Positions 218-32,000 of a stretch of 32,000 nucleotides of DNA are shown here, piece after piece. The stretch spans positions 30,001-62,000 of the forward strand of contig NZ_BCZP01000026.1 of the NCBI RefSeq assembly GCF_001598795.1. The letters are read 5' to 3'. Both the position numbers and the translations under genes were made by a program. Position 1 is the first letter of the stretch, and every line of letters starts with the position of its first letter. This DNA is from Delftia acidovorans NBRC 14950. GTDB lineage: Bacteria > Pseudomonadota > Gammaproteobacteria > Burkholderiales > Burkholderiaceae_C. The notes under the pieces were generated by a model. That model was given only the letters and a program-made list of their open reading frames with translations. It made no database searches and was not told the DNA's origin.

Positions 218-1756
218 CTACGCAGCCAGCGCCAGGCTCTTGTAGACCCCGCAACCCCAGTACAGCCCGCCATGCTTGCAGACGAAGGACATCTTGGTCT
301 GTACCTGTTGCGTGGCAGGGTTTCTGAAGTCGTACTCCACCCAGCCTGGGCCGCGCTCGGCCTGGGCAATGATGTCGGCCAACAGTTGCTCACCCCGCAC
401 GCCTGGCAGCTCCTGCACGCGCACGCCCACACGCGCAGGGTTGCCGCCGAAGGCGCGGTAGCTGCCGTCGGCGGCCAGGGCGAACACGTACATATCGCGG
501 TCATGGAAGGGCTGGCCGGGGTCGTTCACGGCGGCCAGCAATGCCTCGGTGGCCACGCCGCGCCGCGCCAGGCCCAGGGCCGACTCGACCAGGGCCACGG
601 CTTCCTCCGCCGTGCCCTGCTGCAGGCGAAAGCGCGACACCGCCCCTGACAGCATCTGCGCGCGCTGCTGCAGCGCGCGTGCCTGGTCCAGCGCGTGGCC
701 CACCATCTGCGCGTTGTGCTGGGTGATCTCGTCGATCTGGTGCACGGCGCGGCTGATCTCGGCCAGGCCCGTGCTCTGGCTGCCGGTCGATTGCGAGAGC
801 TCGCCCATGTGCTCGGCCACCTGGCGGATGCCTTCGGTCACGCGCTCCATGCCACGCCCGGCCGTGCGGATCAACTCGGTGCTGTGCTCCACCTGGGTCA
901 GCGCATCGCCAATCAGGTGGCGAATCTCGCGCGCCGCCTCCGCCGAGCGGCCGGCCAGAGAGCGCACCTCGCTGGCCACCACGGCAAAGCCCCGGCCCTG
1001 CTCGCCAGCCCGTGCGGCCTCCACGGCGGCATTGAGCGCGAGGATATTGGTCTGGAAAGCAATGCCGTCGATCACGCCGATGATCTCCCGCATGCGCCCG
1101 GCGCTGTTCTCAATGGTCTCCACCGATTCCACGGCGCGGCCCATGGCCACCACGCCTTCATCGGCGGCGCCGCGCACGGCGCTGGCCTGGTGGTGGACCA
1201 CGCCCACCACATCGGCGTTGTGCTGCACGGCGCTGCTCAACTGCTCCACGCTGACCACGGTCTGGGCCAGGTTGGTGGCCTGCAGCTCGGTGCGATCGGA
1301 CAGCGCCTGGTGCTCGTTCACCAATTGCTGCCCGGCCTGCGCCACCAGGGCCGCGTTGCTGCGCACATCGGCCACCATGCCCGACAGCGAGGTGACCATG
1401 CCTCCCAGCAGCGCCTTGGGCGTCTGGACAGCACCAACGCCCTCCTGCGAGGCGGCCGCCTCCACGGTCACGCGCTGGCTCAGGTCGCCCTGGGCGATGC
1501 CCTGCATGGCCTGCTGCAGCAATTCGCGCTCGCCGATCACCCGCGACCAGAGCCTGTGCATGCCGCCCAGCAGCAGTCCGGCCCACAGCAGCAAGGCTCC
1601 CCAAACCCAGGGCCCCATGCCCGCCGAGCCGGCCACCAGCGCCAGCGGCGGCCCCGCCAATGCCCACACGGCGCATACAAGGAAGCCGGCCCCGGGGCCG
1701 GATGTATGCTTACGATGCCTGTTTCCCACTTTTTCCATGCCAGCGCCTGCCTGCAT
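218..1756 (-). CDS. methyl-accepting chemotaxis protein with a membrane hairpin, no periplasmic domain, and an extra C-terminal Cache/PAS-like domain
   Basis: 512-aa ORF with GAGAGG 9 nt upstream of ATG 1756. Two adjacent hydrophobic helices (aa 24-66) are followed by the canonical MCP signalling motif [38 protein letters not shown]. About 125 further aa follow the signalling domain (nt 239-616). Confidence 0.9.
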
Positions 1757-4026: not shown

Positions 4027-4206
4027 TCCGCATCCGCACCGCGCCAAAGGCGTGGTTGCGGCGCCAAAACATCCCCTGTTCAGGGGATGGAGCAAGGCAT
4101 ACTCTCGAGGGCGTCCCCGGCCACCAGGCAGCGGACGCCCGTTTCACGTCACAAGAGCGTGCAGACGATCCAAGAACAGCGGCAGTACACGAATTTGGGG
4201 GAAAAC

Positions 4207-5376
4207 ATGGGCACGATGGAGAGGATTTTGCGCCTGATGGGCGAGAAGCAGGCGTCCGACGTCTACCTGGCGGTCAACGCGCCGGCGCTGATCAAGATCA
4301 ACGGCGAATGCGTGCCCATCAACAACCAGCTGCTGCCGCCCGACGCGCCGCGCAGCCTGCTGGCCGAGATCGTGCCGGCCGAACGCCTGCAGGAACTGGA
4401 CGAAACGGGCGAGCTCAACATGGGCGTGCCGCTGCGCGGCGTGGGGCGTTTTCGCGTCAGCGCCATGCACCAGCGCGGCAGCTGCGCCGTGGTGATCCGC
4501 TTCATCGCCCAGCACATTCCGGCCATGGACACGCTGAACCTGCCGCCCGTGCTGGGCGAGCTGATCATGCAAAAGCGCGGCCTGCTGCTGGTCGTGGGCT
4601 CCACGGGCTCGGGCAAGAGCACGACGCTGGCCTCGATGATCGATGCGCGCAACGAAAAGCTCACGGGCCACATCCTCACCATCGAGGACCCCATCGAATA
4701 CCAGTTCCGCAACAAGCGCTCCATCGTCAACCAGCGCGAAGTGGGCTCGGACACGGCATCGCTGCAGATCGCGCTCAAGAACGCGCTGCGCCAGGCCCCT
4801 GACGTGATCCTGATCGGCGAAATCCGCGACCGCGAGACCATGTCCTCGGCCATGGGCTTTGCGCAGTCGGGCCACCTGTGCCTGGCCACGCTGCACGCCA
4901 ACAACAGCTACCACGCGCTCAACCGCATCCTGTCCTTCTTCCCCGAGGAAATCCGCCCCACCATGCTGGGCGAGCTGTCGGCTGCACTCAAGGGCGTGAT
5001 CTCCCAGCGCCTGGTTCGCACCGTGGACGGCGGCCGCATGCCGGCCGTCGAGGTCATGCTCAACACCAAGCTGATCGCCGACCTGATCGAGCGCGGCAAC
5101 TTCTCGGGCGTCAAGGAGGCCATGGAAAAATCCATGGCCGAAGGCTCGCAGACCTTTGAAGAGGCGCTGGCGCAGCTGGTCCGCTCCGGCCGCATCGACC
5201 GCGCCGAAGCCCTGGCCTTCGCCGATTCGCCCACCAACCTGATGTGGCGCCTGGAAAACGACGTGGTCAAGGCCAGCCATGCAGCGCAGTCCAGCCAGTT
5301 CGCCGAACTGGCCACGCCCGGCGAGGACGACATGCCCTCGTTCACGGAAATCATGCTGGAAGTCAAGCCGAACTGA
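4207..5376 (+). CDS. pilU: PilT/PilU-family type IV pilus retraction ATPase (PilU-like)
   Basis: The frame is open from 4087, but a GGGGGA SD precedes ATG 4207 and family-like sequence starts there ([26 protein letters not shown]). Walker [10 protein letters not shown], Walker [11 protein letters not shown] and His box LATLHANN are present. There is no PilT-type AIRNLIRE motif ([11 protein letters not shown] instead). Confidence 0.85.
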
Positions 5377-20945: not shown

Positions 20946-21683
20946 TCAATGCATGTGCAGGCCACCGTTGACCGAAAAATCGGCGCCGGTGGAATAGCCG
21001 CCTTCCTCCGAGGCCAGCCAGGCGATGATCGAAGCGATCTCGCTGGGCTCGCCCAGGCGCTTGACGGGGATGGTACCCACGATCTTCTCCAGCACGTCGG
21101 GACGGATGGCCTTGACCATGTCGGTGCCGATGTAGCCGGGGCTCACGGTGTTCACGGTCACGCCCTTGGTGGCCATCTCCTGCGCCAGCGCCATGGTGAA
21201 GCCGTGCATGCCCGCCTTGGCGGCCGAGTAATTGGTCTGCCCGGCCTGGCCCTTGGCGCCATTGACCGAGCTGATGTTGATGATGCGGCCCCAGCCCTTT
21301 TCCACCATGTCGCCCACGACCTGCTTGGTCACGTTGAACATGGAGTTGAGGTTGGTCTCGATGACGGCCTGCCAGTCTTCCGGCGTCATCTTGATGAACA
21401 TGCGGTCACGCGTGATGCCGGCATTGTTGACCAGCACATCGATGCTGCCGTGCTCGGCCTTGGTCTTGCTGAAGGCCTCGACGGTGGAAGCCCAGTCGCC
21501 CACATTGCCGACCGATGCATGGAAGTTGTATCCCAGCGCCTTTTGCTCGTCCAGCCACTTCTGGAAGTCGCGCGACGGACCGCAACCTGCGATGACCTTG
21601 AAGCCTTCCTTGTGCAGACGCTGGCAGATAGCCGTTCCGATGCCTCCCATTCCCCCTGTGACATACGCTACTTTTTGAGCCAT
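20946..21683 (-). CDS. phaB: acetoacetyl-CoA reductase (NADPH-dependent SDR)
   Basis: 245 aa. Motifs MAQKVAYVTGGMGGIGTAICQRL, NNAGITRD and the catalytic YSAAKAG are present. GGAGAG SD. Last gene of the phaCAB arrangement. Confidence 0.95.
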   Translation of the reverse strand: MAQKVAYVTGGMGGIGTAICQRLHKEGFKVIAGCGPSRDFQKWLDEQKALGYNFHASVGNVGDWASTVEAFSKTKAEHGSIDVLVNNAGITRDRMFIKMTPEDWQAVIETNLNSMFNVTKQVVGDMVEKGWGRIINISSVNGAKGQAGQTNYSAAKAGMHGFTMALAQEMATKGVTVNTVSPGYIGTDMVKAIRPDVLEKIVGTIPVKRLGEPSEIASIIAWLASEEGGYSTGADFSVNGGLHMH

Positions 21684-21895
21684 TCTTCTCTCCTGTCAAT
21701 CAATGGTTGCTTCAGATCAATCTATCCACGACAACCGGGGCATTGACTCCGGTTATCACCAAGGGTGCCTGAACCTCTGGGTCCGGCACCCCCGTATGGC
21801 TAGTATGCAGCGCGTGCGCTGCGCCTCTCTTCGGGCAGGCCCTAGGCAGGCCTAGGATCTACCCTGAAAGCTTGCTAACGTTTTCCCGGAGCCCT

Positions 21896-23077
21896 TCAGA
21901 CGCGCTCCACCGCCATGGCCACGCCCATGCCGCCGCCGATGCACAGGCCGGCCAGGCCCTTCTTGGCGCCGCTGCGCTGCATCTCGTGCAGCAGGGTGAC
22001 CAGGATGCGGGCGCCCGATGCGCCGATGGGGTGGCCGATGGCAATGGCGCCGCCGTTGACGTTGACCTTGGCGGGGTCGATGCCCAGCTCCTGGTTCACC
22101 GCACAGGCCTGGGCCGCGAAGGCTTCGTTCAGCTCGAACAGGTCCACGTCCTGCGCTGTCCAGCCCGCACGCTCCAGCGCCTTGCGCGAGGCGAACACCG
22201 GGCCCAGGCCCATGGTGGCAGGGTCCAGGCCGCTGGTGGCGTAGGAGACGATGCGTGCCAGCGGCTTCAGGCCCAGGGCCTTGGCCTTGGAGGCGCTCAT
22301 CACCACCACGGCGGCCGCGCCGTCGTTCAGGCCGGAGGCGTTGCCGGCCGTCACCGAGCCGGCCTTGTCGAAGGCCGGGCGCAGGCCTGCCAGGGCGTCG
22401 GCATTGGTCTTGCGGTTGATGTACTCATCGGCCGCGAACACCACGGGATCGCCCTTGCGCTGGGGAATGCTGACGGGAACGATTTCGTCCACGAACTTGC
22501 CTGCGTCCTGTGCGGCCGTGGCCTTTTGCTGGCTGGCCAGGGCCAGGGCATCCTGCTGCTCGCGGCTGACGCTCTTTTCCTTGGCCACGTTCTCGGCCGT
22601 GATGCCCATGTGGTACTGGTTGTAGACGTCCCACAGGCCGTCCACGATCATGGTGTCGGCCATCTTCCAGTCACCCATGCGCTGGCCGTCGCGCGAGCCC
22701 GGCAGCACGTGGGGCGACAGGCTCATGTTCTCCTGGCCGCCGGCCACGACGATCTCGCTGTCGCCCGTGGCCACGGCCTGGGCTGCCAGCATCACGGCCT
22801 TCAGGCCCGAGCCGCAGACGGCGTTGATGGTGAGGGCCGGGGTTTCCTTGGCAACGCCGGCCTTCATCATGGCCTGGCGTGCAGGGTTCTGGCCTGCGCC
22901 AGCGGCCAGCACCTGGCCCATGATGACTTCACCGACCTGGTCGGTGCCGACCTTGGCGCGGTTCAGTGCCTCGCGGATCACGATGGAGCCCAGTTCGGTG
23001 GCGGGGATCTTGGCAAGGGTGCCGCCAAACTTGCCAACGGCAGTACGGACAGCGGAAACGATGACGATGTCTTCCAT
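21896..23077 (-). CDS. phaA: acetyl-CoA acetyltransferase (beta-ketothiolase)
   Basis: Start at ATG 23077 ([19 protein letters not shown]). Thiolase motifs [31 protein letters not shown] and CIGGGMGVA are present. 393 aa. Confidence 0.95.
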
Positions 23078-23200
23078 GATGACGGACCTTTCTTTGGACT
23101 CTTGAAGGGATGCCTGGGCGCACATTGCCGCAGTCGCGGCAGCGGCACCCTGCATTCAAGCCGCAGCGTTATTGCGCTGCAGCATCGAAACGATTGTGCC

Positions 23201-25093
23201 TCAGGCCTTGACCAGTACGTAGCGGCCTGGGGCCGGCTCGATGGCCGTGTATTCCCTGCCTTTGCCATACTGCTTTGGCGCTGCGACCAGCTTGCCGCCG
23301 TGCTCGGCCAGCCAGGGGCTCCAGTCGGCCCACCAGCTGCCCGGGTACTCGTCGGCGCCGGCCTGCCACTCCTTGAGGGTGGGCGGCAGTTGGCCGTCCT
23401 CGCGCAGCCAGTAGCTGCGCTTTTTCTTGGCCGGCGGATTGATCACGCCCGCGATGTGGCCCGACGCGCCCATCACAAAACGCTTGTCGCCGCCCAGCAC
23501 CTGGGTGGACGCATAGGAGCCGCCCACGGGCACGATGTGGTCCTCGCGCGAGCCATAGATATAGGCCGGCAGGCGCAGCTGGTGCATGTCGATGCGCTCG
23601 CCGCAGACGGTCAGCGCGCCGGGCTGGGCCAGCTTGTTTTCCAGGTAGAGGTTGCGCAGATACCAGGCGTAGTAGGGGCCGGGCAGGTTGGTGGAGTCGC
23701 TGTTCCAGTACAGCAGGTCGAACGGCGGGGGCGTCTCGCCCTTGAGGTAGTTGCCCACCACGTAGTTCCAGACCAGGTCGTTGGGCCGCAGAAAGCTGAA
23801 GGTGGACGCCAGGTCCTGGCCCTTCATGAGACCGCCCTCGCCCATCTGCATCTCACGGAAGCGCACCACGGATTCGTCGATGAAGACATCGAGGATGCCG
23901 GTGTCGCTGAAGTCGATGAAGGTAGTCAGCAGCGTGACGCTGGCCACGGGAAATGGCACGCCAGCTGGCGCCGTGGCGCGGGCTGTGGATGTGCGGGCGG
24001 CGCTGCGGCTGCCAGCCGCGCGCTTGGCCGCAGGCGCCTTGGCCGCCGGAGCGGCAACTGCGCCATGCTCGCGGTCGTGGCGCGCCTGCAGCACGGCCAG
24101 CGCGGTGGACAGCATGGTGCCGCCCACGCAAAAGCCCAGCACATTGATCTGCTCGGCTCCCGCGATCTCGCGCGCCACGCGGATGCCGGTGAGCACGCCG
24201 TCCTCGATGTAGTTGTCCCAGGTCTTGCGCGCCAGACTTTCGTCGGGGTTGCGCCAGCTCATCACGAAGGTGCGATGGCCCTGGCTGACGGCGTAGCGGA
24301 TCAGCGAGTTGTCGGGCTGCAGATCCAGGATGTAGAACTTGTTGATGCAGGGCGGCACCATGAGGAAGGGCCGCTCGTGTACCTTGTCCGTCAGCGGCTT
24401 GTATTCGATGAGCTGGAACAGCTCGTTCTCGAACACCACGGCGCCTTCGGTGGTGGCGACGTTCTTGCCCACGGTGAACAGGCTCTCGTCGGTCATGGAC
24501 ACATGGCCCTGGCGCATGTCGGCCAGCAGGTTGGCCACGCCCTGGGCCAGGCTCTCGCCTTGGGTTTCGATGGCTTTCTTCTGAGCCTCGGCATTGAGTG
24601 CCAGGAAGTTGCTGGGCGCCATGGCCGCCAGCCATTGCTCGATGGCGAAGCGCACGCGGTTGCGCGTCTTGTCATCGGCCTGCACGGCATCGGCCAGGCC
24701 CATGAGCATGCGGCTGTTGAGCAGATAGGTCGCAGCCGTGGCCGCCGTCAGCGGATTGCCGGCCCACGACTCGGTATTGAAGCGCTTGTCCTTGGCCAGC
24801 AGCGCCTGGGCGCCGCCCTGTTCGGCCATGGCCTTGGCACCATCCAGGTACTGGCGCTGCAGCTCCAGCAGCTTTTCGGGGTCCAGCGACAGCGCGTTCT
24901 CGGGCAGGGCGCCGGGTTCGGGGACGGCCGCTTTCCAGGCCTGGGCCATGTCCGGCATGCCTGGCATGCCCTGGGTTCCCGGAAGGCCTGGTTGCCCCAG
25001 CTGCTGCAGTGTCTGCAGCGTGCGGCTCCATTGCTCGTTCCAGAATTGCTGGACGGATTGGCCTGACAGGCCAGCGAGTGGGTCAAAATTCAT
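23201..25093 (-). CDS. phaC: class I poly(3-hydroxyalkanoate) synthase, with an Ala/Pro/Arg-rich insertion after the lipase box
   Basis: Start at ATG 25093 (MNFDPLAGLSGQS...). Lipase box GFCVGG, plus WNSDSTNLPG, GSREDHIVP and ASGHIAGVINPP. 630 aa. Confidence 0.95.
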   Translation of the reverse strand: MNFDPLAGLSGQSVQQFWNEQWSRTLQTLQQLGQPGLPGTQGMPGMPDMAQAWKAAVPEPGALPENALSLDPEKLLELQRQYLDGAKAMAEQGGAQALLAKDKRFNTESWAGNPLTAATAATYLLNSRMLMGLADAVQADDKTRNRVRFAIEQWLAAMAPSNFLALNAEAQKKAIETQGESLAQGVANLLADMRQGHVSMTDESLFTVGKNVATTEGAVVFENELFQLIEYKPLTDKVHERPFLMVPPCINKFYILDLQPDNSLIRYAVSQGHRTFVMSWRNPDESLARKTWDNYIEDGVLTGIRVAREIAGAEQINVLGFCVGGTMLSTALAVLQARHDREHGAVAAPAAKAPAAKRAAGSRSAARTSTARATAPAGVPFPVASVTLLTTFIDFSDTGILDVFIDESVVRFREMQMGEGGLMKGQDLASTFSFLRPNDLVWNYVVGNYLKGETPPPFDLLYWNSDSTNLPGPYYAWYLRNLYLENKLAQPGALTVCGERIDMHQLRLPAYIYGSREDHIVPVGGSYASTQVLGGDKRFVMGASGHIAGVINPPAKKKRSYWLREDGQLPPTLKEWQAGADEYPGSWWADWSPWLAEHGGKLVAAPKQYGKGREYTAIEPAPGRYVLVKA

Positions 25094-25234
25094 GCTGCAT
25101 CCTTGTTCGTGGATGCCATGCAATAGCCTGGGGCTTGCGGGGCATCCGTTTTGATTGTGACCCAGGCGAGCCCCGCCTTGCCCGGCACAGACCTCCACGA
25201 AAACCCGTGCCCCGCTCGTTTTTTTGGTTCGACC

Positions 25235-25570
25235 ATGTATCTCGTTGTTATCGCCTGGCTGTATGTCACTCTGATGATGGCAGTGGCCGAGGCCGCCAGC
25301 CCCACGGGCAGCATACTCGGCGCCGTGATCACGTTCGCACTCTATGGACTGCTGCCGCTGTCCATCGTGATCTACATCATGGGCACGCCCGCGCGCAAGC
25401 GAAAACGCCATGCACGCGAATTGGCCGAGCGCGAGGCCTGGCTGGCGCAGCAGCAGGCCTCGCAGAGCGGCCCCGGCACGCAGGCGCGCTCAGTCCTTCC
25501 AGATGCAGGCGGCGAACCGCCCGCTGCTGCCCAGGCGGGCAGCGTCGCGCCGGTGCGAAAAGAACCGTGA
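25235..25570 (+). CDS. small two-helix membrane protein, unknown function
   Basis: 111 aa from ATG 25235: MYLVVIAWLYVTLMMAVAEA...ILGAVITFALYGLLPLSIVIYIMG, then a basic patch ARKRKRHAR and a low-complexity tail. There is no clear SD, and the 3' end overlaps the convergent pgeF by 81 nt. Confidence 0.45.
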   Translation: MYLVVIAWLYVTLMMAVAEAASPTGSILGAVITFALYGLLPLSIVIYIMGTPARKRKRHARELAEREAWLAQQQASQSGPGTQARSVLPDAGGEPPAAAQAGSVAPVRKEP

Positions 25571-26347
25571 GCCGTTGAGCACCGTGCACCATGCGTCGCC
25601 GCCGTCATTGCCGTAGATGGCGGTGATGCCCAGCGCCGCCAGGCGCTGGCGCGCAAGCCCGGCCAGGTTGGCCAGGTACTTGGGTGCGCCCCCGCCCTCT
25701 TGCGGCACGGCGGTGAAATGCGCCCCGGCCGCCGCGTCATGCGCGATGAAGGCCGCGCGCACCTCGGCGCCCACTTCGAAGGAGCGCGGACCGATGCAGG
25801 GTCCGAGCCAGGCCAGGGTCTGCTGCGCCGCTTGCCCGGGCGGTGTCTGGATCTGGCCAGCTAAGCGCTCGAACAGCGTCTCCAGCACCCCGCCCGCCAG
25901 CCCGCGCCAGCCCGCATGGGCCGCGCCCACCACGGCACCGCTGCGATGGGCCAGCAGCACGGGCAGGCAGTCAGCCACCATGATGGTGCAGACCACGCCC
26001 GAGGCGCGGGTCACGCAGGCATCGAAGGCCTGGCCCTGCGCGCTGCCTGCATCCAGGGCCACGACATCCACGCCATGCACCTGCTGCAGGAACACTGCGC
26101 AGGCGCCGGGCGTATGGGCACGCACGATCTCCTGCAGCCGCTGGCGGTTGGTGCGGACGGCCTGCGGGTCATCGCCCACATGGTCGCCCAGGTTCAGGCT
26201 GCCCCAGGGCGCCGTGCTGACGCCGCCTTCGCGCGAGGTGCACAGCGCGTGAACGCCGGGCGGCGCGGGCCACTCGGGCACCAGCCAGGATGCGGGGATG
26301 GTGCCGGGGAGGTTGCCGGGGATGGAGTCAGGCCGGGCCGCGCTCAT
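25490..26347 (-). CDS. pgeF: laccase-domain / purine nucleoside phosphorylase-like protein (YfiH/PgeF, DUF152)
   Basis: Start at ATG 26347, overlapping the maiA stop (ATGA). Motifs QVHGVDVV, MVADCLPVLL, AHAGWRGLAGGV and FFSHRRD are present. 285 aa. Confidence 0.87.
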   Translation of the reverse strand: MSAARPDSIPGNLPGTIPASWLVPEWPAPPGVHALCTSREGGVSTAPWGSLNLGDHVGDDPQAVRTNRQRLQEIVRAHTPGACAVFLQQVHGVDVVALDAGSAQGQAFDACVTRASGVVCTIMVADCLPVLLAHRSGAVVGAAHAGWRGLAGGVLETLFERLAGQIQTPPGQAAQQTLAWLGPCIGPRSFEVGAEVRAAFIAHDAAAGAHFTAVPQEGGGAPKYLANLAGLARQRLAALGITAIYGNDGGDAWCTVLNGSRFFSHRRDAARLGSSGRFAACIWKD

Positions 26348-27009
26348 TCCGCGTCGGGGCAGGCCGAGGGATGGGCCTTCTGGAAGGCCGGCAGCGCCTC
26401 GCAGCGATCGACGATGGCCGCCAGGCGTGGCAGGCCGTCCAGGCTCACGTTGAAGCGGCGGCCGTTGAAGATCTGCGGCACCAGGCAACAGTCGGCCAGC
26501 GTGGGCGTGTCGCCCCAGCAAAACAGCGAAGGCGCCAGGCCTGCGGCCTCGCGCTCGGCGGCCAGCAGGTCCAGCTGGCGCTCGAAGGCCTCCAGGCCCG
26601 ATCGCACCCAATGCACGTACCAGCCGCTCTTGGCCTCGTCGGAGACACCCAGGTTGCGCACCAGGTACTTGAGCACGCGCAGGTTGTTGAGCGGATGGAT
26701 CTCGCAGGCCACCATCTGGGCCAGTGCGCGCACATGGGCACGGCCCAGGGCGTCGCGCGGCAGCAGCGGTATTTCGGCATGGGTCTCATCGAGATATTCG
26801 ATGATGGCCATGGACTGGGTCAGCCAGTGGCCGTCCTCGGTTTCCAGCGCCGGCACCAGCGCATCGCCGACATGCTGGGCATAGGCCGGCGCCCTGTGGT
26901 CGCCGCGCAGCAGGTGCACGGGTATGGATTCATAGTCCAGGCCCTTGATCTGCAGCGCAATGCGCACGCGGTAGGAGGCCGACGAGCGGAAGTAGGTGTG
27001 GAGCTTCAT
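26344..27009 (-). CDS. maiA: maleylacetoacetate/maleylpyruvate isomerase (GST zeta class)
   Basis: Start at ATG 27009. N-terminus MKLHTYFRSSASYRVRIALQIKGLDYE carries the zeta-class SSxxxRVRIAL signature. 221 aa. Confidence 0.85.
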   Translation of the reverse strand: MKLHTYFRSSASYRVRIALQIKGLDYESIPVHLLRGDHRAPAYAQHVGDALVPALETEDGHWLTQSMAIIEYLDETHAEIPLLPRDALGRAHVRALAQMVACEIHPLNNLRVLKYLVRNLGVSDEAKSGWYVHWVRSGLEAFERQLDLLAAEREAAGLAPSLFCWGDTPTLADCCLVPQIFNGRRFNVSLDGLPRLAAIVDRCEALPAFQKAHPSACPDAE

Positions 27010-27142
27010 AGACCGCAAAGCATACCGTGCGACCCGGGGTCTGTTCCGGCTCATCCGGCCATCGCGTTGCCCCGCTGCGGGGCCACAGGCATGGCACACT
27101 TGCGACGGCGCCCACGAGACAAGGCGCCAGAGGAACACCGAC

Positions 27143-27838
27143 ATGAGCTACGTTTTCAACCCGCCCGCCGTGGCCAGCGTACCCGTCCTGGGCCGCCCCG
27201 AGCGTTTTCCCGTGCACCGCATCTACTGCGTGGGCCGCAACTACGAAGAGCACGCCAAGGAGATGGGCTTCACTGGCCGCGAGCCGCCCTTCTTCTTCCT
27301 CAAGCCTGCCGACGCCATCGTGCCCGTCGAGGCCGGCACCACGGGCACCATGCCCTACCCCACGCTGACCTCCAACCTGCACCACGAGATCGAGCTCGTC
27401 GTGGCCATCGGCAAGGCGGGCAAGAACATCCTGGCCGCCGACGCGCTGGACTACATCTGGGGCTACGCCGTGGGCCTGGACATGACGCGCCGCGACCTTC
27501 AGAACGACATGAAGAAACAGGGCCGCCCCTGGTGCATCGGCAAGGCCTTCGAGCATGCCGCGCCCATCGGTCCCATCACCCCGGCAGCCGAGGCCGGCGA
27601 CATCGCCAAGGCCACGATCTCGCTGCAGGTCAATGGCGCCGACCGCCAGCGCAGCGACATCGGCAAGCTGATCTGGAACATTGCCGAGACCATCGAGCAC
27701 CTGTCGGCCGCCTGGGAACTGCAGCCCGGCGACCTGATCATGACGGGCACGCCCGAAGGCGTGGCCGCCGTGGTGCGCGGTGACCTGCTGGAAGGCCGCA
27801 TCGATGGCCTGAGCCCCTTGAGCGTCAAGATCGCCTGA
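27143..27838 (+). CDS. fumarylacetoacetate hydrolase family protein (short, fumarylpyruvate-hydrolase-like)
   Basis: GAGGAA SD before ATG 27143. Motifs CVGRNYEEHAKEMG, HHEIELVVAIGK and GDLIMTGTPEGV are present. 231 aa. Divergent from maiA. Confidence 0.88.
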   Translation: MSYVFNPPAVASVPVLGRPERFPVHRIYCVGRNYEEHAKEMGFTGREPPFFFLKPADAIVPVEAGTTGTMPYPTLTSNLHHEIELVVAIGKAGKNILAADALDYIWGYAVGLDMTRRDLQNDMKKQGRPWCIGKAFEHAAPIGPITPAAEAGDIAKATISLQVNGADRQRSDIGKLIWNIAETIEHLSAAWELQPGDLIMTGTPEGVAAVVRGDLLEGRIDGLSPLSVKIA

Positions 27839-27985: not shown

Positions 27986-28549
27986 ATGATTTTTCGCAGC
28001 CCCATCAAGTTCTGCCGAGCCTGCGGCACGGCCGTGGTCTACCGCATTCCCGACGATGGCGACACGCGCGAACGCGCCGTGTGCCCGCACTGCCACACCA
28101 TCCATTACGAGAATCCGCTGAACGTGGTCGGCACCATCCCCGTCACCGACGACGGCCGCGTGCTGCTGTGCAAGCGCAACATCGAGCCGCGCCGGGGCCT
28201 GTGGACCCTGCCTGCCGGCTTCATGGAACTGGCCGAGACCACGGCGCGCGGCGCCCAGCGCGAGACCGATGAGGAAGCCGGTGCCGACATCGAGATGGGG
28301 CCGCTGTTTTCCATCGTTGACGTGCCCAAGGTCAGCCAAGTCCACCTGTTCTACCGCGCCCGCCTGCGCAGCGAGCAGTTCTATCCAGGCCCGGAGACCA
28401 TGGAGGCCCGCCTCTTTGCCGAGGCCGAGATTCCCTGGGAGGAACTGGCCTTTCGCACCGTGCGCGTGACGCTGGAGCGCTACTTCGAGGACCGTGCGGC
28501 CGGCCTGCTTGACGCGCACCGCGTGCACTCCATCGACCTGAGCCTGTAG
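27986..28549 (+). CDS. Nudix hydrolase with N-terminal zinc ribbon
   Basis: Nudix box GFMELAETTARGAQRETDEEAG. N-terminal CRAC...CPHC zinc-ribbon pair. 187 aa. Confidence 0.87.
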   Translation: MIFRSPIKFCRACGTAVVYRIPDDGDTRERAVCPHCHTIHYENPLNVVGTIPVTDDGRVLLCKRNIEPRRGLWTLPAGFMELAETTARGAQRETDEEAGADIEMGPLFSIVDVPKVSQVHLFYRARLRSEQFYPGPETMEARLFAEAEIPWEELAFRTVRVTLERYFEDRAAGLLDAHRVHSIDLSL

Positions 28550-28784
28550 GCGCACCACCGTGCTGCACGGCAGTGCCGGACGCGCCCCGGTGACGCCAGG
28601 CCATGCCCCGGCGTGGCGCCGATGGGGCTGCGGGTGGGGCTGTGGATGGGGGGCCGTCATCCCTGTGTCACCTTGCAGACACATTTAGTCACAAACTGGC
28701 CTTCTTCTTGCTCGTTGCATCAGGCTTTTCCCTGATCGGGGAAAGCGGGTTTCACCCAGCCTGAACCTGACTGCGGAGCGCTCC

Positions 28785-31703
28785 ATGGCCACATCCCTGC
28801 CAACCGACCTGATTCTTCCCCACCTGCGGGAACTCAACCGCAACGCCGCCGACCTGCGCGAAATACGGCTCATGTGGCGGCTCATCGAAGCCTCGGCCCG
28901 CATGCAGGCATCGCAGCAGGGGCAGGCCCTGGTGTCCATGCTCACCGACACGCGCCAGGGACTGGAGCAGCTGGAGCAAGGCCTGCTGCAGTCGCAGCTG
29001 GCGCAATCCGCGCAGGAGGCCATGGCCCAGCTGGGCATGCAGTCCGCCCATGCCATCGACCTGCTGGTGCGAAGCCTGTACGAGCGCACGGCCGATGTCG
29101 GCTTTCTCGCCGCCGATACCGTGCTGTGCGAGGCCATGGCCCGGCTTGACGATGGCGATGGCGATGGCGATGGCGATGGCGATGGCGATGGCGATGGCGA
29201 TGATTGTGGCCTGCCCGACATGGCGGCCGGCGGTCTGCGCGCATGGCAGGCACCGCTGCAGGCGCACTTGCAGGCCCACCTCCAGAGCTACCGAGCCAAG
29301 TACACGGTGTATGACGACATCCTGCTGCTGGACACGCAGGGCCAGGTCTGCGCACGTGCCCAGGCGCAGGCAGGCCGCAAGCCGCCACCGCCCTGTGCCG
29401 AGGCCTGGTTCCAGCAGTCCCTGCAGCAGGCCGGCCATGTCAGCCATTTCGGCGCCAGTTGCGTGCTGCCGGGCGCTGACCGCCTGATCTACGCGCAGCG
29501 CTTGCTGCACCCACGCACCATGGCGGTGCTCGGCGTGCTGTGCCTGAGCTTCGACTTCGCCGCCGAGATGCAGGCCATCTTTGCCTCGGGCGGGCCGCGC
29601 GCCCAGGTGGGACTGCTGCTGGACGACGGCGGACTGGTCATCGCCAGCAGCGACGCCCACTGGATAGCCCCCGGCAGCCGCGTGCCCATGCACCATGGTG
29701 ATGCCGTACAGCCGCTGATCCATGCAGGCCGCACCTACCTGGTGCGCACGGCGCGCGCCCTGCCCTACCAGGGCTATGCGGGGCCGCAGGGCTGGCAGAC
29801 CCAGGTGATGGCACCGCTGGACCTGGCCTTCGCCACGCAGCAAAGACCGCAGGTCCTGCAGGCGCTGGAGCCGGCCATTGCCGAGGGGCTGATGGCCCAG
29901 GCGCGCGGCTTTTGCCCGCCGCTGCACGCCATGGCCCGCGCGGCCGACGACATACGCCGCGTGGTCTGGAATGGCCAGGTGCTGGCTGCCAGCCAGGCGC
30001 CGGAGTCCCCGGTGCAGGGCACGGCCCACCCGGACCCGCTGCAGGCCGTGCTGGAGCAGATGGGCGAGACCGGCGACCTGACCCATGCCGTGTTCACACG
30101 CGCCATTCACGGCCTGCACGAGACCGCGCTGTCCACCCGGCTGCAGGAGCACAGCACGCTGAACCGGCTGCTGATGGACCTGCTGGAGCGCAATCTCTAT
30201 GAACGTGCCAACGACTGCCGCTGGTGGGCCCTGACACCCGGCCTGCAAAAGGTGCTGGAGGACAACAGCGGCTGCCTTGCCCTGTCGGTACAGGCCCACG
30301 ACAGCGCGCAGCGGCTGCTGGAGCAGCTCAATGCGCTGTACACCGTCTATGCACGCATTGCGCTGTACGACGCCCAGGGCCTGGTGCTGGCCTGCAGCCA
30401 TGAGGACGAGGCCGGCCTGCCCCTGGCTCCCGGCACGCGCGTGCAGGCATCGGCCCTGCAGGCCACTGTGCTGCTGCGCGATGCCCAGGCCTACCACGTG
30501 CAGGAGATGGACGATGGAGGCCTGCCCGTCCATGTCTACCATGCCGCGCTGCGCGCGCCATCGCCTGGGAGTGAACAGACGCACGGACATGCACACGGCG
30601 GCGATCAGGGCCCCGTCATCGGCGGCATCGCCCTGCTGTTCCACACGCGGCGGGAGCTGCAGGCCATGCTGCAGGCCGCAGCGCCAGAGCAGGCGACAAC
30701 GGCAGAGCACGCTGCAGCCACCGATCCCGAAGACAGCGGCCTGCCGCGCCTGCCGATGGAAGCGTTCTACGTGGCGCGTGACGGGCGCATCGTCGCTGCC
30801 AGCCATGGCGGGCGCCCGCTGGGCAGCTGCATCGCAGGCGTGGCCGGCCTGGCATCGCTGGCCGATGGCGAGGTGCGCAGCAGCATCGAGGAGATCGAAG
30901 GCCACTACTGCATCGTCGGCATGGCCGCCGGGCGCGGCTACCGCGAGTTCCGTCTGGACCAGGGCGCGGCACGCGATGCAAAAGAAAGCGCAACGGACGA
31001 CACACTGGCCGGCCTCGTCAGCCTGAGCCTGCAGCGGCTGGGCCCCGTGCATGCCGATGCGCGCAACCGCGCGCTGCGCCTGGCGTCGGCCACCCGGCTG
31101 GATGGCGCCCGGCCCGCTACGCACGGGCACGGGCACGGGCACGGGCACGGGCACGGGCACGGGCGCGCCGCGCATGGCAGCGGCGACGCGCCTGTGGAAC
31201 TGGCCAGCTTCTACGTGGGCGCCAGCCTGCTGGCCCTGCGCGCGGGCGATGTCTGCGAGGCCCTGCCCGCCAGCGCCATCTCGCCCGTGGCGGCAGGAAG
31301 GCTGCCGTTTTGCGTGGGCGCGCTGGCACGGCGCAGCCAGGGCAGCGTCAGCGGCTATGTCTGGGTGTTCGACCTGGCCGCGCTGCTGCAGGGCCAGCCC
31401 GGCGTGGTCACCGAGCAGTCACAGGTCATCGTGGTCCAGCATGGCGGCCTGCGCGTGGGCCTGCTGGTCAGCGCGCTGCAGGGCGTGCACCGGCTGCCAG
31501 CCAGCGCGCTGGTGGATTCGCCCATGCTGAACGCGGCCGACACCGCGACGGCCCTGGTGCGCAAGCTGGTGCATGCCGATTCGGGCCTGCCGCTGATCCA
31601 GTGCCTGGACCCCGCCGCGCTGATGCGAAGGCTGCAGCCTTCGCGCGTTGCCGCCGCCAATGCCGATCGCAATGCGGTCAGCGTGGAAAGAGAGGCGGCG
31701 TAG
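28785..31703 (+). CDS. soluble multidomain signalling protein: two tandem Cache/PAS-like sensor modules plus a C-terminal CheW-like domain
   Basis: 972-aa ORF with GGAG 6 nt before the ATG and no hydrophobic TM or signal segment. Internal duplication: SLYERTADVGFLA...YTVYDDILLLDTQGQV versus NLYERANDCRWWA...YTVYARIALYDAQGLV. The last ~150 aa follow the CheW pattern (FYVGASLLALRAGDVCEA / YVWVFDLAALL / VIVVQHGGLRVGLLVSALQGV / LIQCLDPAALM). Confidence 0.85.
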   Translation: MATSLPTDLILPHLRELNRNAADLREIRLMWRLIEASARMQASQQGQALVSMLTDTRQGLEQLEQGLLQSQLAQSAQEAMAQLGMQSAHAIDLLVRSLYERTADVGFLAADTVLCEAMARLDDGDGDGDGDGDGDGDGDDCGLPDMAAGGLRAWQAPLQAHLQAHLQSYRAKYTVYDDILLLDTQGQVCARAQAQAGRKPPPPCAEAWFQQSLQQAGHVSHFGASCVLPGADRLIYAQRLLHPRTMAVLGVLCLSFDFAAEMQAIFASGGPRAQVGLLLDDGGLVIASSDAHWIAPGSRVPMHHGDAVQPLIHAGRTYLVRTARALPYQGYAGPQGWQTQVMAPLDLAFATQQRPQVLQALEPAIAEGLMAQARGFCPPLHAMARAADDIRRVVWNGQVLAASQAPESPVQGTAHPDPLQAVLEQMGETGDLTHAVFTRAIHGLHETALSTRLQEHSTLNRLLMDLLERNLYERANDCRWWALTPGLQKVLEDNSGCLALSVQAHDSAQRLLEQLNALYTVYARIALYDAQGLVLACSHEDEAGLPLAPGTRVQASALQATVLLRDAQAYHVQEMDDGGLPVHVYHAALRAPSPGSEQTHGHAHGGDQGPVIGGIALLFHTRRELQAMLQAAAPEQATTAEHAAATDPEDSGLPRLPMEAFYVARDGRIVAASHGGRPLGSCIAGVAGLASLADGEVRSSIEEIEGHYCIVGMAAGRGYREFRLDQGAARDAKESATDDTLAGLVSLSLQRLGPVHADARNRALRLASATRLDGARPATHGHGHGHGHGHGHGRAAHGSGDAPVELASFYVGASLLALRAGDVCEALPASAISPVAAGRLPFCVGALARRSQGSVSGYVWVFDLAALLQGQPGVVTEQSQVIVVQHGGLRVGLLVSALQGVHRLPASALVDSPMLNAADTATALVRKLVHADSGLPLIQCLDPAALMRRLQPSRVAAANADRNAVSVEREAA
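29151..29201 (+). repeat. perfect hexanucleotide microsatellite (GATGGC)x8 plus a partial unit, in frame, encoding (DG)8
   Basis: Counted directly: eight uninterrupted GATGGC units at 29151-29198, then GAT. Lies within the first sensor module. Confidence 0.98.
31122..31163 (+). repeat. perfect hexanucleotide microsatellite (CACGGG)x7, in frame, encoding (HG)7
   Basis: Counted directly: seven uninterrupted CACGGG units. They lie in the linker just before the CheW-like domain. Confidence 0.98.
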
Positions 31704-31738
31704 CCCGGGCCTGTCGGGTGTGCCGCGCCTTTAGCGCC

Positions 31739-32000
31739 TCAAAGGCCCCAGTGGCGCAGGCCCGGCAACGCGGCCTGCGCTGCCTCGTAGCCTTCGTCGA
31801 TGGCCTCGCGGGCGCGGTGGAAGTCCAGCAGGCCCAGGTGGGACAGGCGCGGCGCGATCACCAGCTCGGGCGGGTCGCCCGCCATGCGGCTGCGCGTGAT
31901 GCGCATCTGCATGATGTTGACGCTGGTCATCACCACGTCCAGCAGCGAGGGCGGACGGGGCGGGGGCTCGGTCTCGCGGCCTGCCTCGTCGCGGTGGTGG
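31739..32000 (-). CDS. 3' part of a CDS running off the right edge; C-terminus resembles patatin-like phospholipases (RssA type)
   Basis: The frame stays open to base 32000; the 31936 start in the ORF track is an internal GTG. The tail ...ELVIAPRLSHLGLLDFHRAREAIDEGYEAAQAAL was matched by eye only. Confidence 0.4.
   Translation of the reverse strand, partial: HHRDEAGRETEPPPRPPSLLDVVMTSVNIMQMRITRSRMAGDPPELVIAPRLSHLGLLDFHRAREAIDEGYEAAQAALPGLRHWGL

What the first reader, a model, noticed from the sequence alone, without database searches (positions are those of the whole stretch)
28785..31703. Cytoplasmic double-sensor protein ending in a CheW-like domain, with no MCP signalling domain and no che neighbours
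The 972-aa product has no signal peptide or TM helix. Residues about 90-350 (nt 29037-29835) and about 465-750 (nt 30177-31035) are an internal duplication. Each starts with a helix carrying LYER(T/A)xD (SLYERTADVGFLA / NLYERANDCRWWA). Each is followed by a YTVYxxIxLxDxQGxV strand (YTVYDDILLLDTQGQV / YTVYARIALYDAQGLV) and further strand-like segments (GLLLDDGGLVIASSD / AFYVARDGRIVAASH). That layout resembles Cache/PAS-type ligand-binding modules, which are usually extracytoplasmic parts of chemoreceptors and kinases. The last ~150 aa (nt 31191-31634) follow the CheW scaffold pattern. The protein therefore joins ligand sensing directly to the coupling-protein fold, without a methyl-accepting hairpin. 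It could insert into chemoreceptor arrays, or bind CheA or MCP tips, and modulate signalling in response to an intracellular ligand. Its neighbours (Nudix hydrolase, patatin-like gene) are unrelated, so it is an orphan.
Basis: partly seen in the sequence, partly recalled or inferred. Interest (0 to 1): 0.72.

Follow-up and report, generated by a model that had tools for sequence, protein, structure and literature searches.

The report
Cytoplasmic tandem double-Cache sensor fused to CheW
This Delftia gene encodes a soluble 972-residue protein with two complete ligand-sensor modules of a type normally found outside the cell, joined to the small domain that plugs proteins into the bacterial chemotaxis receptor lattice. 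It belongs to a widespread family that nobody has studied, and it probably feeds an intracellular signal into that lattice.

Summary
ORF 28785-31703 (+) encodes a 972-aa protein with no TM helix and one Pfam hit, CheW (aa 807-949, E 2.5e-11). The internal duplication is real (HHalign aa 77-341 vs 450-732, probability 99%, E 2.4e-18).

Each repeat is a whole double-Cache (dCache) domain, not a single PAS. The AlphaFold2 models (pLDDT 81) match DctB, Tlp3, PctA, KinD and TlpC sensor domains. Distant relatives pass Pfam's dCache_1 threshold. The C-terminus matches CheW structures (TM 0.83).

The window comes from the Delftia acidovorans group. The gene has no che neighbours: Nudix lies upstream and a patatin-like gene is convergent downstream.

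The family is large. At least 578 species genomes carry it, mostly Burkholderiales, and it is annotated only as "chemotaxis protein CheW". A roughly 670-aa version without CheW is common in Gammaproteobacteria and Desulfovibrio.

No paper on the family was found. The closest precedent is Treponema CheWS (CheW plus a SAM sensor, 2023).

The likely function is inferred, not shown: the CheW domain docks the protein on receptor/CheA arrays, and the cytoplasmic dCache modules supply input. A link to GGDEF-EAL neighbours appeared in one sample (17/129 vs 4/404) but did not replicate in a second.

Verdict: new variant of a known kind, with moderate to high interest.

The parts
28785..31703 (+). Complete ORF, 972 aa plus stop: a soluble protein with two tandem dCache modules and a CheW domain
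   Evidence: Full-length homologues of 35-98% identity align from residue 1-10 to about 950.
28785..28913 (+). N-terminal helical segment (aa 1-43), conserved LRELxLMWRLIE motif
   Evidence: AF2 helices 7-13 and 15-39. Invariant R15, L24, L29, W31, I34, A38.
28914..29816 (+). dCache-like module 1 (aa 44-344): stalk helix 44-109 ending in the NLYERTADVGFLA motif, two short helices, a distal 5-stranded PAS-like subdomain (176-256), and a proximal 5-stranded subdomain (275-344)
   Evidence: AF2 secondary structure. Sub-threshold Pfam dCache_1 hits fall on the equivalent region of homologues P0027, P0033 and P0118. HHalign to module 2 gives E 2.4e-18. Foldseek matches DctB, Mlp37 and Tlp3.
29150..29202 (+). 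Perfect hexanucleotide repeat CGATGG x8.8 encoding (DG)n, aa 123-140, in a low-confidence loop of module 1
   Evidence: TRF. pLDDT is below 50 at aa 141-147. Copy number differs between Delftia strains.
29817..30035 (+). Helical linker between the modules (aa 345-417), with conserved FCPPL and IRRVVWNGQ motifs
   Evidence: AF2 helices 345-403. Invariant I390, R392, V394, W395, N396, G397.
30036..31046 (+). dCache-like module 2 (aa 418-754): stalk helix 418-482 ending in NLYERANDCRWWA, a distal PAS-like subdomain (522-619) and a proximal subdomain (658-754)
   Evidence: A separate AF2 model of aa 408-800 has pLDDT 81.4. All top-50 Foldseek PDB hits are double-Cache/PDC sensor domains (3lif E 3.9e-9, DctB, Tlp3, PctA, KinD, TlpC). 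The relative in L136 scores 64.1 bits on dCache_1 (cut-off 45), with its best stretch on this module.
31047..31193 (+). Helix (aa 759-775) plus a disordered linker to the CheW domain. It contains the hexanucleotide repeat GCACGG x7.3 (31121-31164) encoding (HG)n, aa 780-793.
   Evidence: (pLDDT below 50 at aa 781-797)
31194..31634 (+). CheW-like domain (aa 804-950; Pfam match 807-949)
   Evidence: PF01584 E 2.5e-11, 43.8 bits against a cut-off of 23.5. Foldseek matches 2ch4_Y at TMt 0.83, 9a72_B at 0.77 and 8c5v_E at 0.78. The family profile hits PDB CheW chains. The domain is highly conserved within the family.
31644..31697 (+). C-terminal amphipathic helix (aa 954-971), poorly conserved
   Evidence: AF2, pLDDT about 57-61
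27986..28549 (+). Upstream neighbour: Zn-ribbon Nudix hydrolase, separated from the ORF by a 235-nt gap. Syntenic in Delftia and Acidovorax but not in Comamonas.
31739..32000 (-). Convergent downstream neighbour: the 3' part of a patatin-like phospholipase gene, which runs off the window

Best explanation
The gene encodes a soluble cytoplasmic signalling protein built from two tandem double-Cache (dCache) ligand-binding modules and a C-terminal CheW-like domain. It is a member of a large, uncharacterised family. The most likely mechanism has three steps. The CheW-like domain docks the protein onto the cytoplasmic tips of chemoreceptors, or into the CheA-P5/CheW rings of a chemosensory array. 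The roughly 800-residue sensor part then hangs below the baseplate. Binding of an intracellular small molecule to one or both dCache modules changes kinase control or array packing, so a metabolic or cytoplasmic cue enters the pathway without a methyl-accepting receptor. What is shown: the domain composition, the folds, the duplication, the absence of TM segments, the strong conservation, the distribution and the lack of a fixed gene partner. What is inferred: docking to arrays, ligand binding and the effect on CheA.
For: Architecture: a CheW Pfam hit above threshold and a CheW fold at TM 0.83. Two dCache folds are supported by the full model, by module 2 alone, by above-threshold dCache_1 or Cache_WalK hits in distant fused relatives, by sub-threshold hits in both halves of close relatives, and by HHalign between the halves at E 2.4e-18. 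No TM helix was found. Selection: full-length conservation holds in at least 578 species genomes. There are about 95 invariant columns in 48 sequences at around 40% identity, including both NLYERxxD stalk motifs and much of the CheW domain. This argues that the sensor and the docking surface both function. The basic residue that aligns with the Arg of the CheW NLRG motif is kept as R, H or K in 45 of 48 sequences. Precedent: T. denticola CheWS, a CheW domain fused to a SAM-binding sensor, sits in the array rings and modulates chemotaxis (PMC10653840). That paper and the Vass/Bourret preprints (10.1101/2022.05.07.491035) list unstudied fusions of CheW with input domains. The protein is not a spare scaffold: in Comamonas testosteroni CNB-1, deleting the canonical cheW alone abolishes chemotaxis (PMC6391922), and other strains of that species carry a 43%-identical orthologue. 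Presence of the orthologue in CNB-1 itself was not checked. Weak Rosetta-stone hint: two tandem-sensor genes that lack CheW lie next to MCP genes.
Against: No interaction, localisation or ligand could be tested. The CheW domain is divergent: 44-59 bits on Pfam, and E only 5e-5 for the family profile against PDB CheW chains. It also has a 5-residue insertion in the NLRG loop, so its partner could differ from classical MCP/CheA. The gene is never next to cheA, cheY, cheR or cheB in about 150 loci. No sigma-28-type -10 box lies upstream. MCP neighbours are not enriched. The 670-aa form that lacks CheW shows that the sensor works without any CheW domain.
Confidence: 0.55

Rival explanations
1. The protein belongs to c-di-GMP or biofilm signalling rather than flagellar chemotaxis. 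Its CheW-like domain would dock it to an alternative chemosensory pathway (Tfp/Flm- or Wsp-like). Alternatively, the protein would tether or regulate a GGDEF-EAL enzyme at the array, as the phosphodiesterase Pch is recruited by CheA in Pseudomonas aeruginosa.
For: In 72 genome loci, GGDEF-EAL proteins are the most frequent immediate neighbour: 15 of 128 by Pfam, and 17/129 immediate against 4/404 non-immediate (odds ratio 15, p 3e-8). They form two orthologous groups. One is GAF-GGDEF-EAL directly upstream on the same strand, with overlapping or abutting ends, in Paucimonas, Undibacterium, Rhodoferax, Pseudoduganella and two MAGs. The other is PAS-PAS-GGDEF-EAL, divergent, in Methylophilaceae. 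Two sensors that lack CheW lie beside GGDEF genes as well as MCP genes. The precedent is PMC3861689. Comamonas has a second, biofilm-controlling chemosensory pathway that cross-talks with Che (PMC6391922).
Against: The enrichment did not replicate in 79 metagenome loci (GGDEF 3/145 immediate against 5/414, not significant). Those loci were scored with home-made HMMs, which may be less sensitive. The counts are not corrected for shared ancestry. Delftia, Acidovorax and Comamonas loci have no such immediate neighbour.
Confidence: 0.2
2. The tandem dCache unit has its own function independent of chemotaxis, as in the 670-aa stand-alone proteins. In Burkholderiales the CheW domain would serve only as a polar address tag, comparable to the CheW-like array-integration domain of Vibrio ParP, and would not modulate kinase output.
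For: The form without CheW is widespread and equally conserved, with the same invariant motifs. The linker to the CheW domain is disordered and variable in length, with (HG)n expansions, which fits a tether better than a rigid signalling connection. The ParP comparison rests on the author's own knowledge.
Against: Nothing specific argues against it. It differs from the main explanation only in whether kinase output changes. CheWS shows that a tethered sensor can modulate behaviour (PMC10653840).
Confidence: 0.15
3. It is simply an atypical long CheW scaffold that substitutes for or duplicates CheW, and the N-terminal region is structural and does not sense anything.
For: Databases name it 'chemotaxis protein CheW'.
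Against: The 800 N-terminal residues fold as two canonical ligand-binding dCache domains and are as conserved as the CheW domain. Canonical cheW is separately present and essential in Comamonas (PMC6391922). The sensor also exists without CheW.
Confidence: 0.05

Closest known systems
CheWS of Treponema denticola (CheW domain fused to a CheR-like SAM sensor; PMC10653840)
   Same: Both are single soluble polypeptides that join a CheW-like domain to a cytoplasmic small-molecule sensor and lack an MCP signalling domain. CheWS has been shown to sit in the array rings and to modulate chemotaxis.
   Different: In CheWS the CheW domain is N-terminal and the sensor is a methyltransferase-like fold of about 240 aa. 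Here the sensor is N-terminal, about 800 aa long and made of two dCache domains. The CheWS gene belongs to the spirochaete F2 system, whereas this gene is an orphan. There is no sequence relationship outside the CheW domain.
dCache_1 ligand-binding domains of chemoreceptors and sensor kinases (DctB, Tlp3, PctA, Mlp37, KinD, TlpC)
   Same: The fold is the same: a long N-terminal stalk helix followed by membrane-distal and membrane-proximal PAS-like subdomains. Foldseek gives E 4e-9 to 1e-5 and TMt 0.55-0.68.
   Different: Those domains are periplasmic or extracellular, bracketed by two TM helices, present once per chain, and signal through a TM helix. Here two copies lie in tandem in a soluble protein with no TM helix. 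78% of Cache domains are predicted to be extracellular (PMC4822843).
Canonical CheW, CheV and multi-CheW proteins
   Same: They share a CheW-like double beta-barrel domain that passes the Pfam threshold.
   Different: CheW is about 150-170 aa and consists of this one domain, encoded in che operons. CheV adds a receiver domain. This protein adds two sensor domains, and its CheW domain is divergent, with an insertion in the NLRG loop.
Stand-alone 'cache domain-containing protein' family of about 670 aa (Thioalkalivibrio, Halorhodospira, Methylophaga, Alteromonas, Desulfovibrio legallii)
   Same: These are true homologues of residues about 10-760 (30-40% identity), with the same two modules and the same invariant NL(Y/F)ERTAD and NLYERANDxRWWA motifs.
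   Different: They end right after module 2 and have no CheW or any other output domain. They too are uncharacterised.
ParP of Vibrio (C-terminal CheW-like array-integration domain)
   Same: The CheW-like domain is C-terminal and is used to insert a non-scaffold protein into arrays. This rests on the author's own knowledge and was not tested here.
   Different: The N-terminus of ParP binds ParC and is not a ligand sensor. Homology to ParP was not examined.

Membership tests
CheW-like domain (Pfam PF01584) | Sequence match to the family HMM above the gathering score | tested here: met
   43.8 bits against a cut-off of 23.5, aa 807-949. Homologues score 46-59 bits.
CheW-like domain (Pfam PF01584) | Fold of two intertwined five-stranded beta-barrels | tested here: met
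   Foldseek matches T. maritima CheW 2ch4_Y at TMt 0.83 and rmsd 3.0, and E. coli CheW 8c5v_E at 0.78.
CheW-like domain (Pfam PF01584) | Binds CheA P5 and chemoreceptor tips | not testable with these tools
   No multimer prediction or experiment was available. The only indirect evidence is that a basic residue is kept at the position aligned to the NLRG Arg.
Canonical CheW coupling protein | Single-domain protein of about 150-170 aa encoded with cheA, cheY, cheR and cheB | tested here: not met
   The protein is 972 aa with 800 extra residues. No che genes lie within 10 kb on either side, and none are immediate neighbours in about 150 loci.
dCache_1 (Pfam PF02743) / Cache superfamily | Sequence match above the gathering score (45 bits) | tested here: inconclusive
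   The window protein has no hit at E<=1. Close homologues score 22-40 bits, below the cut-off, in both halves. The distant fused relative L136 scores 64.1 bits, and L105 and L137 pass the Cache_WalK cut-off.
dCache_1 (Pfam PF02743) / Cache superfamily | Long N-terminal helix plus two PAS-like alpha/beta subdomains (double PDC fold) | tested here: met
   AF2 secondary structure of both modules. All top-50 Foldseek hits for module 2 alone are dCache/PDC sensors. The full model matches DctB at TMt 0.63-0.68. Module 1 is homologous to module 2.
dCache_1 (Pfam PF02743) / Cache superfamily | Extracytoplasmic location between two TM helices (typical of the family, not universal) | tested here: not met
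   The hydropathy scan and the model show no TM helix.
dCache_1 (Pfam PF02743) / Cache superfamily | Binds a small-molecule ligand in the distal (or proximal) pocket | not testable with these tools
Methyl-accepting chemotaxis protein (soluble chemoreceptor) | MCPsignal coiled-coil hairpin (PF00015) | tested here: not met
   There is no PF00015 hit and no long antiparallel hairpin in the model.
CheW-fused sensor class (CheWS type) | A CheW domain and a dedicated sensor domain in one soluble chain | tested here: met
CheW-fused sensor class (CheWS type) | Located in the array rings, with ligand-dependent behavioural output | not testable with these tools
   This needs localisation, cryo-ET and behavioural assays.
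CheV | CheW domain followed by a receiver domain | tested here: not met
   There is no Response_reg hit.

The most novel reading that the evidence does not exclude
This family would be a widespread second route of chemosensory input in Betaproteobacteria. In it, receptor-independent cytoplasmic dCache sensors plug directly into the CheA/CheW lattice through their own CheW domain. In some lineages they would act together with an adjacent GGDEF-EAL enzyme, coupling metabolite sensing, array output and c-di-GMP turnover. The tandem arrangement may form an intramolecular pseudo-dimer that replaces the homodimer of membrane dCache receptors.
Probability: 0.3. Interest if true: 0.78.

Novelty: new variant of a known kind. 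Interest (0 to 1): 0.6.

Why it matters
Chemotaxis input is thought to pass almost entirely through methyl-accepting receptors. Only one sensor fused to CheW (CheWS) has been characterised. This work shows that hundreds of Burkholderiales species, including Delftia, Comamonas, Acidovorax, Methylotenera and Herminiimonas, carry a conserved protein of about 860-970 aa labelled "CheW". About 800 of its residues are in fact two unrecognised cytoplasmic dCache sensors.

If the protein docks on arrays, it would be a common receptor-independent way to bring intracellular chemistry into taxis or biofilm decisions. It would also show that the mainly extracellular dCache fold is used as a tandem cytoplasmic sensor. 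Finally, the work flags a sister family of about 670 aa with no output domain, whose way of signalling is unknown.

Tried and rejected
- **NCBIfam scan:** no family matched.
- **Sigma-28 regulon test:** I searched 600 nt around the starts of 78 family genes and upstream of the window gene for a GCCGA(T/A)A -10 box. Only 7 scattered matches turned up, none conserved and none in the window. Membership of the flagellar regulon is therefore not supported, though this regex test is weak.
- **Sigma-70 promoter and terminator scan of 28300-32000:** nothing useful.
- **Conserved gene partner:** all-against-all clustering of the flanking ORFs found no che gene. GGDEF-EAL enrichment was strong in genome loci but did not replicate in metagenome loci. 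I treat it as lineage-restricted. MCP neighbours were not enriched in either set.
- **Other output domains on the tandem sensor:** only two architectures were seen, with CheW and with nothing. Longer hits that my family-specific CheW HMM missed turned out to carry divergent CheW domains.
- **Context of the Gracilibacteria homologue:** uninformative.
- **Literature:** seven searches found no paper on this family or on a Cache-CheW fusion.
- **Canonical, redundant CheW:** rejected, for the reasons given under the rival explanations.
Full report
**Observation.** The window holds an ATG-initiated ORF at 28785-31703 (+) of 972 codons. GGAG lies 9-12 nt upstream, and GC3 is 0.85, like the other genes in the window. 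A 19-residue hydropathy scan peaks at 1.62, on a segment that holds Asp and Glu and is a beta strand in the model, so no TM helix is evident. The only significant Pfam hit is CheW at aa 807-949 (E 2.5e-11, 43.8 bits against a cut-off of 23.5). There is no MCPsignal hit and no NCBIfam model.

**Duplication.** BLASTP of the two halves gives one collinear alignment (E 6e-4). On a 48-sequence family alignment (A1), profile-profile HHalign aligns aa 77-341 with aa 450-732 at 99% probability and E 2.4e-18.

**Fold.**
- An AlphaFold2 model of the whole protein built from A1 has mean pLDDT 81.6 and pTM 0.79.
- Each repeat has a helix of about 65 residues, two shorter helices, a five-stranded alpha/beta subdomain, a connecting helix and a second five-stranded subdomain. 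This is the layout of a double-Cache (dCache/double-PDC) domain.
- Foldseek against the PDB returns two classes of hit. CheW structures match the C-terminus (2ch4_Y TMt 0.83). dCache sensor domains match the repeats (DctB 3by9/3e4o/2zbb TMt 0.63-0.68; Mlp37, Mlp24, Tlp3, PctA, PctC).
- A separate model of aa 408-800 (pLDDT 81.4) gives only dCache/PDC sensors in its top 50 hits: 3lif at E 3.9e-9, then DctB, Tlp3, PctA, KinD, LuxQ, TlpC and TlpQ.
- At the sequence level, close homologues give sub-threshold dCache_1 hits in either half. More distant fused relatives pass curated cut-offs: L136 scores 64.1 bits on dCache_1, and L105 and L137 pass Cache_WalK.
- The protein therefore carries two complete dCache domains, or four PAS-like subdomains, followed by a disordered linker and a CheW-like domain.

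**Family and distribution.**
- The window is 94.5-96.6% identical in DNA to Delftia acidovorans MMO-42.
- More than 100 full-length homologues were listed, all annotated at most as "chemotaxis protein CheW".
Nearly all are Burkholderiales: Comamonadaceae, Oxalobacteraceae, Methylophilaceae, Thiobacillus, Sulfuriferula, Methylibium and Tepidimonas.
- An exhaustive HMMER search with aa 1-800 found 529 clusters at 50% identity. These show two length classes, about 830-930 aa and about 660-690 aa.
- The short class ends just after module 2 and lacks CheW. It is a large family in Gammaproteobacteria and Desulfovibrio, named "cache domain-containing protein" or "hypothetical". It shares the invariant stalk motifs NL(Y/F)ERTAD and NLYERANDxRWWA.
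- No other output domain was seen. Long hits that my own CheW HMM missed carry divergent CheW domains.
- The CheW fusion is thus a derived form of an older stand-alone tandem-dCache protein.

**Context.**
- In Delftia and Acidovorax the gene lies in the order phaCAB, yfiH-like, GST, FAA hydrolase, Nudix, [gene], patatin or SRAP, ligA, zipA-like, smc.
- In Comamonas and a Burkholderiales MAG it lies elsewhere.
- No che gene is nearby. An MCP gene at 218-1756 is 27 kb away.
- No sigma-28 box, sigma-70 promoter or terminator was detected.

**Neighbours across the family.**
- Across 72 genome loci the commonest immediate neighbour is a GGDEF-EAL protein: 15 of 128 neighbours by Pfam, and 17/129 immediate against 4/404 more distant (odds ratio 15, p 3e-8, not corrected for phylogeny).
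- These neighbours form two orthologous groups in operon-like or divergent arrangements.
- Two of five short-form loci place the sensor between an MCP gene and a GGDEF gene. The other three do not.
- In an independent set of 79 metagenome loci the enrichment vanished: GGDEF 3/145 against 5/414 and MCP 1/145 against 4/414 (scored with home-made HMMs).
- I therefore treat the c-di-GMP link as lineage-restricted and unproven. The gene is essentially an orphan.

**Mechanism.**
- *Shown:* the architecture, the folds, the soluble nature, the strong purifying selection on both sensor modules and the CheW domain, and retention of a basic residue at the position aligned with the Arg of the CheW NLRG motif in 45 of 48 sequences.
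- *Inferred:* the CheW domain docks the protein on chemoreceptor tips or in CheA-P5/CheW rings, and ligand binding to the cytoplasmic dCache modules modulates kinase control.
- *Support:* the best support is precedent. T. denticola CheWS, a CheW domain fused to a SAM sensor, sits in the rings with its sensor beneath them and alters chemotaxis and biofilm (PMC10653840). That study counted 30 undescribed CheW architectures, 12 of them with input domains. Vass and co-workers also noted rare CheW-PAS fusions (10.1101/2022.05.07.491035).
- *Not a spare scaffold:* canonical cheW is essential for chemotaxis in C. testosteroni CNB-1 (PMC6391922), and other strains of that species carry an orthologue.
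- *Against:* the CheW domain is divergent, the gene has no che linkage, and the form without CheW shows that the sensor can act without any CheW domain.
- *Rivals:* a role in an alternative chemosensory or c-di-GMP pathway (compare Pch-CheA, PMC3861689); a localisation-only tether; or an atypical scaffold. The last is unlikely.

**Comparison with known systems and novelty.** The protein works like CheWS in principle, but it differs in domain order, sensor fold, size, duplication and genomic setting. Its sensor modules have the dCache fold but not the usual extracytoplasmic, TM-bracketed setting; 78% of Cache domains are predicted to be extracellular (PMC4822843). It is not an MCP, a CheV or a canonical CheW. 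No publication on this family was found in seven literature searches. I rate it a new variant of a known kind (sensors fused to CheW), resting on an unrecognised sensor family. Interest is 0.6: the anatomy is solid and the family is large, but the function is inferred and the general concept has a precedent.

Noticed in passing
window 218-1756 (-): This MCP gene has an unusual order of parts. Two N-terminal hydrophobic segments are followed by an MCPsignal domain (aa 189-344) and then a C-terminal sCache_2 domain (aa 379-499). The Cache domain comes after the signalling hairpin, so it is presumably cytoplasmic. That makes a second cytoplasmic Cache in the same window.
   Followed up: partly
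window 29150-29202 and 31121-31164: Two perfect in-frame hexanucleotide repeats lie inside the ORF: CGATGG x8.8 encoding (DG)n, and GCACGG x7.3 encoding (HG)n. They fall in low-confidence loop and linker regions. Copy number differs between close Delftia strains, and both tracts are absent from Delftia sp. DT-2. The (DG)n tract also gives a spurious weak Pfam TrAA12 hit.
   Followed up: yes
L019, L038, L047, L058, L061, L063 (directly upstream, same strand); L017-L042, L067, L071 (divergent or convergent): Two orthologous groups of GGDEF-EAL proteins abut the fusion gene in several Oxalobacteraceae, Rhodoferax and Methylophilaceae. One group is GAF-GGDEF-EAL and the other is PAS-PAS-GGDEF-EAL. 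The enrichment was strong in genome loci but did not replicate in metagenome loci.
   Followed up: yes
P0158, P0178, P0200, P0227, P0235, P0248, P0260 and about 120 more; loci L087-L094: A large family of tandem-dCache proteins of about 670 aa has no output domain at all. It occurs in Thioalkalivibrio, Halorhodospira, Methylophaga, Alteromonas and Desulfovibrio legallii. How these proteins signal is unknown. In L088 the gene order is PAS-GGDEF, sensor, HAMP-MCP. In L090 the sensor lies between a 4HB-MCP gene and a GAF-PAS-GGDEF gene.
   Followed up: partly
P0242 / L095: A CheW-fused homologue comes from a Candidatus Gracilibacteria MAG. Its deposited translation is full of W where relatives have G, which is consistent with the UGA=Gly genetic code of that lineage. 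Pfam finds nothing in the mistranslated sequence.
   Followed up: partly
window 20946-25411 (-) and 25490-27838: The window also holds the phaC-phaA-phaB polyhydroxyalkanoate cluster, followed by yfiH-like (Cu-oxidase_4), GST/maleylacetoacetate-isomerase-like and FAA-hydrolase genes. This block is syntenic in Delftia and Acidovorax. The PhaC ORF as listed (736 aa) is about 100 aa longer than the 629-aa gene called in Delftia sp. DT-2, so its true start is probably internal.
   Followed up: no
window 4087-5376 (+): A T2SSE-family ATPase (PilB/GspE/PilT-like, 429 aa) stands alone between dapD-like and unannotated genes.
   Followed up: no
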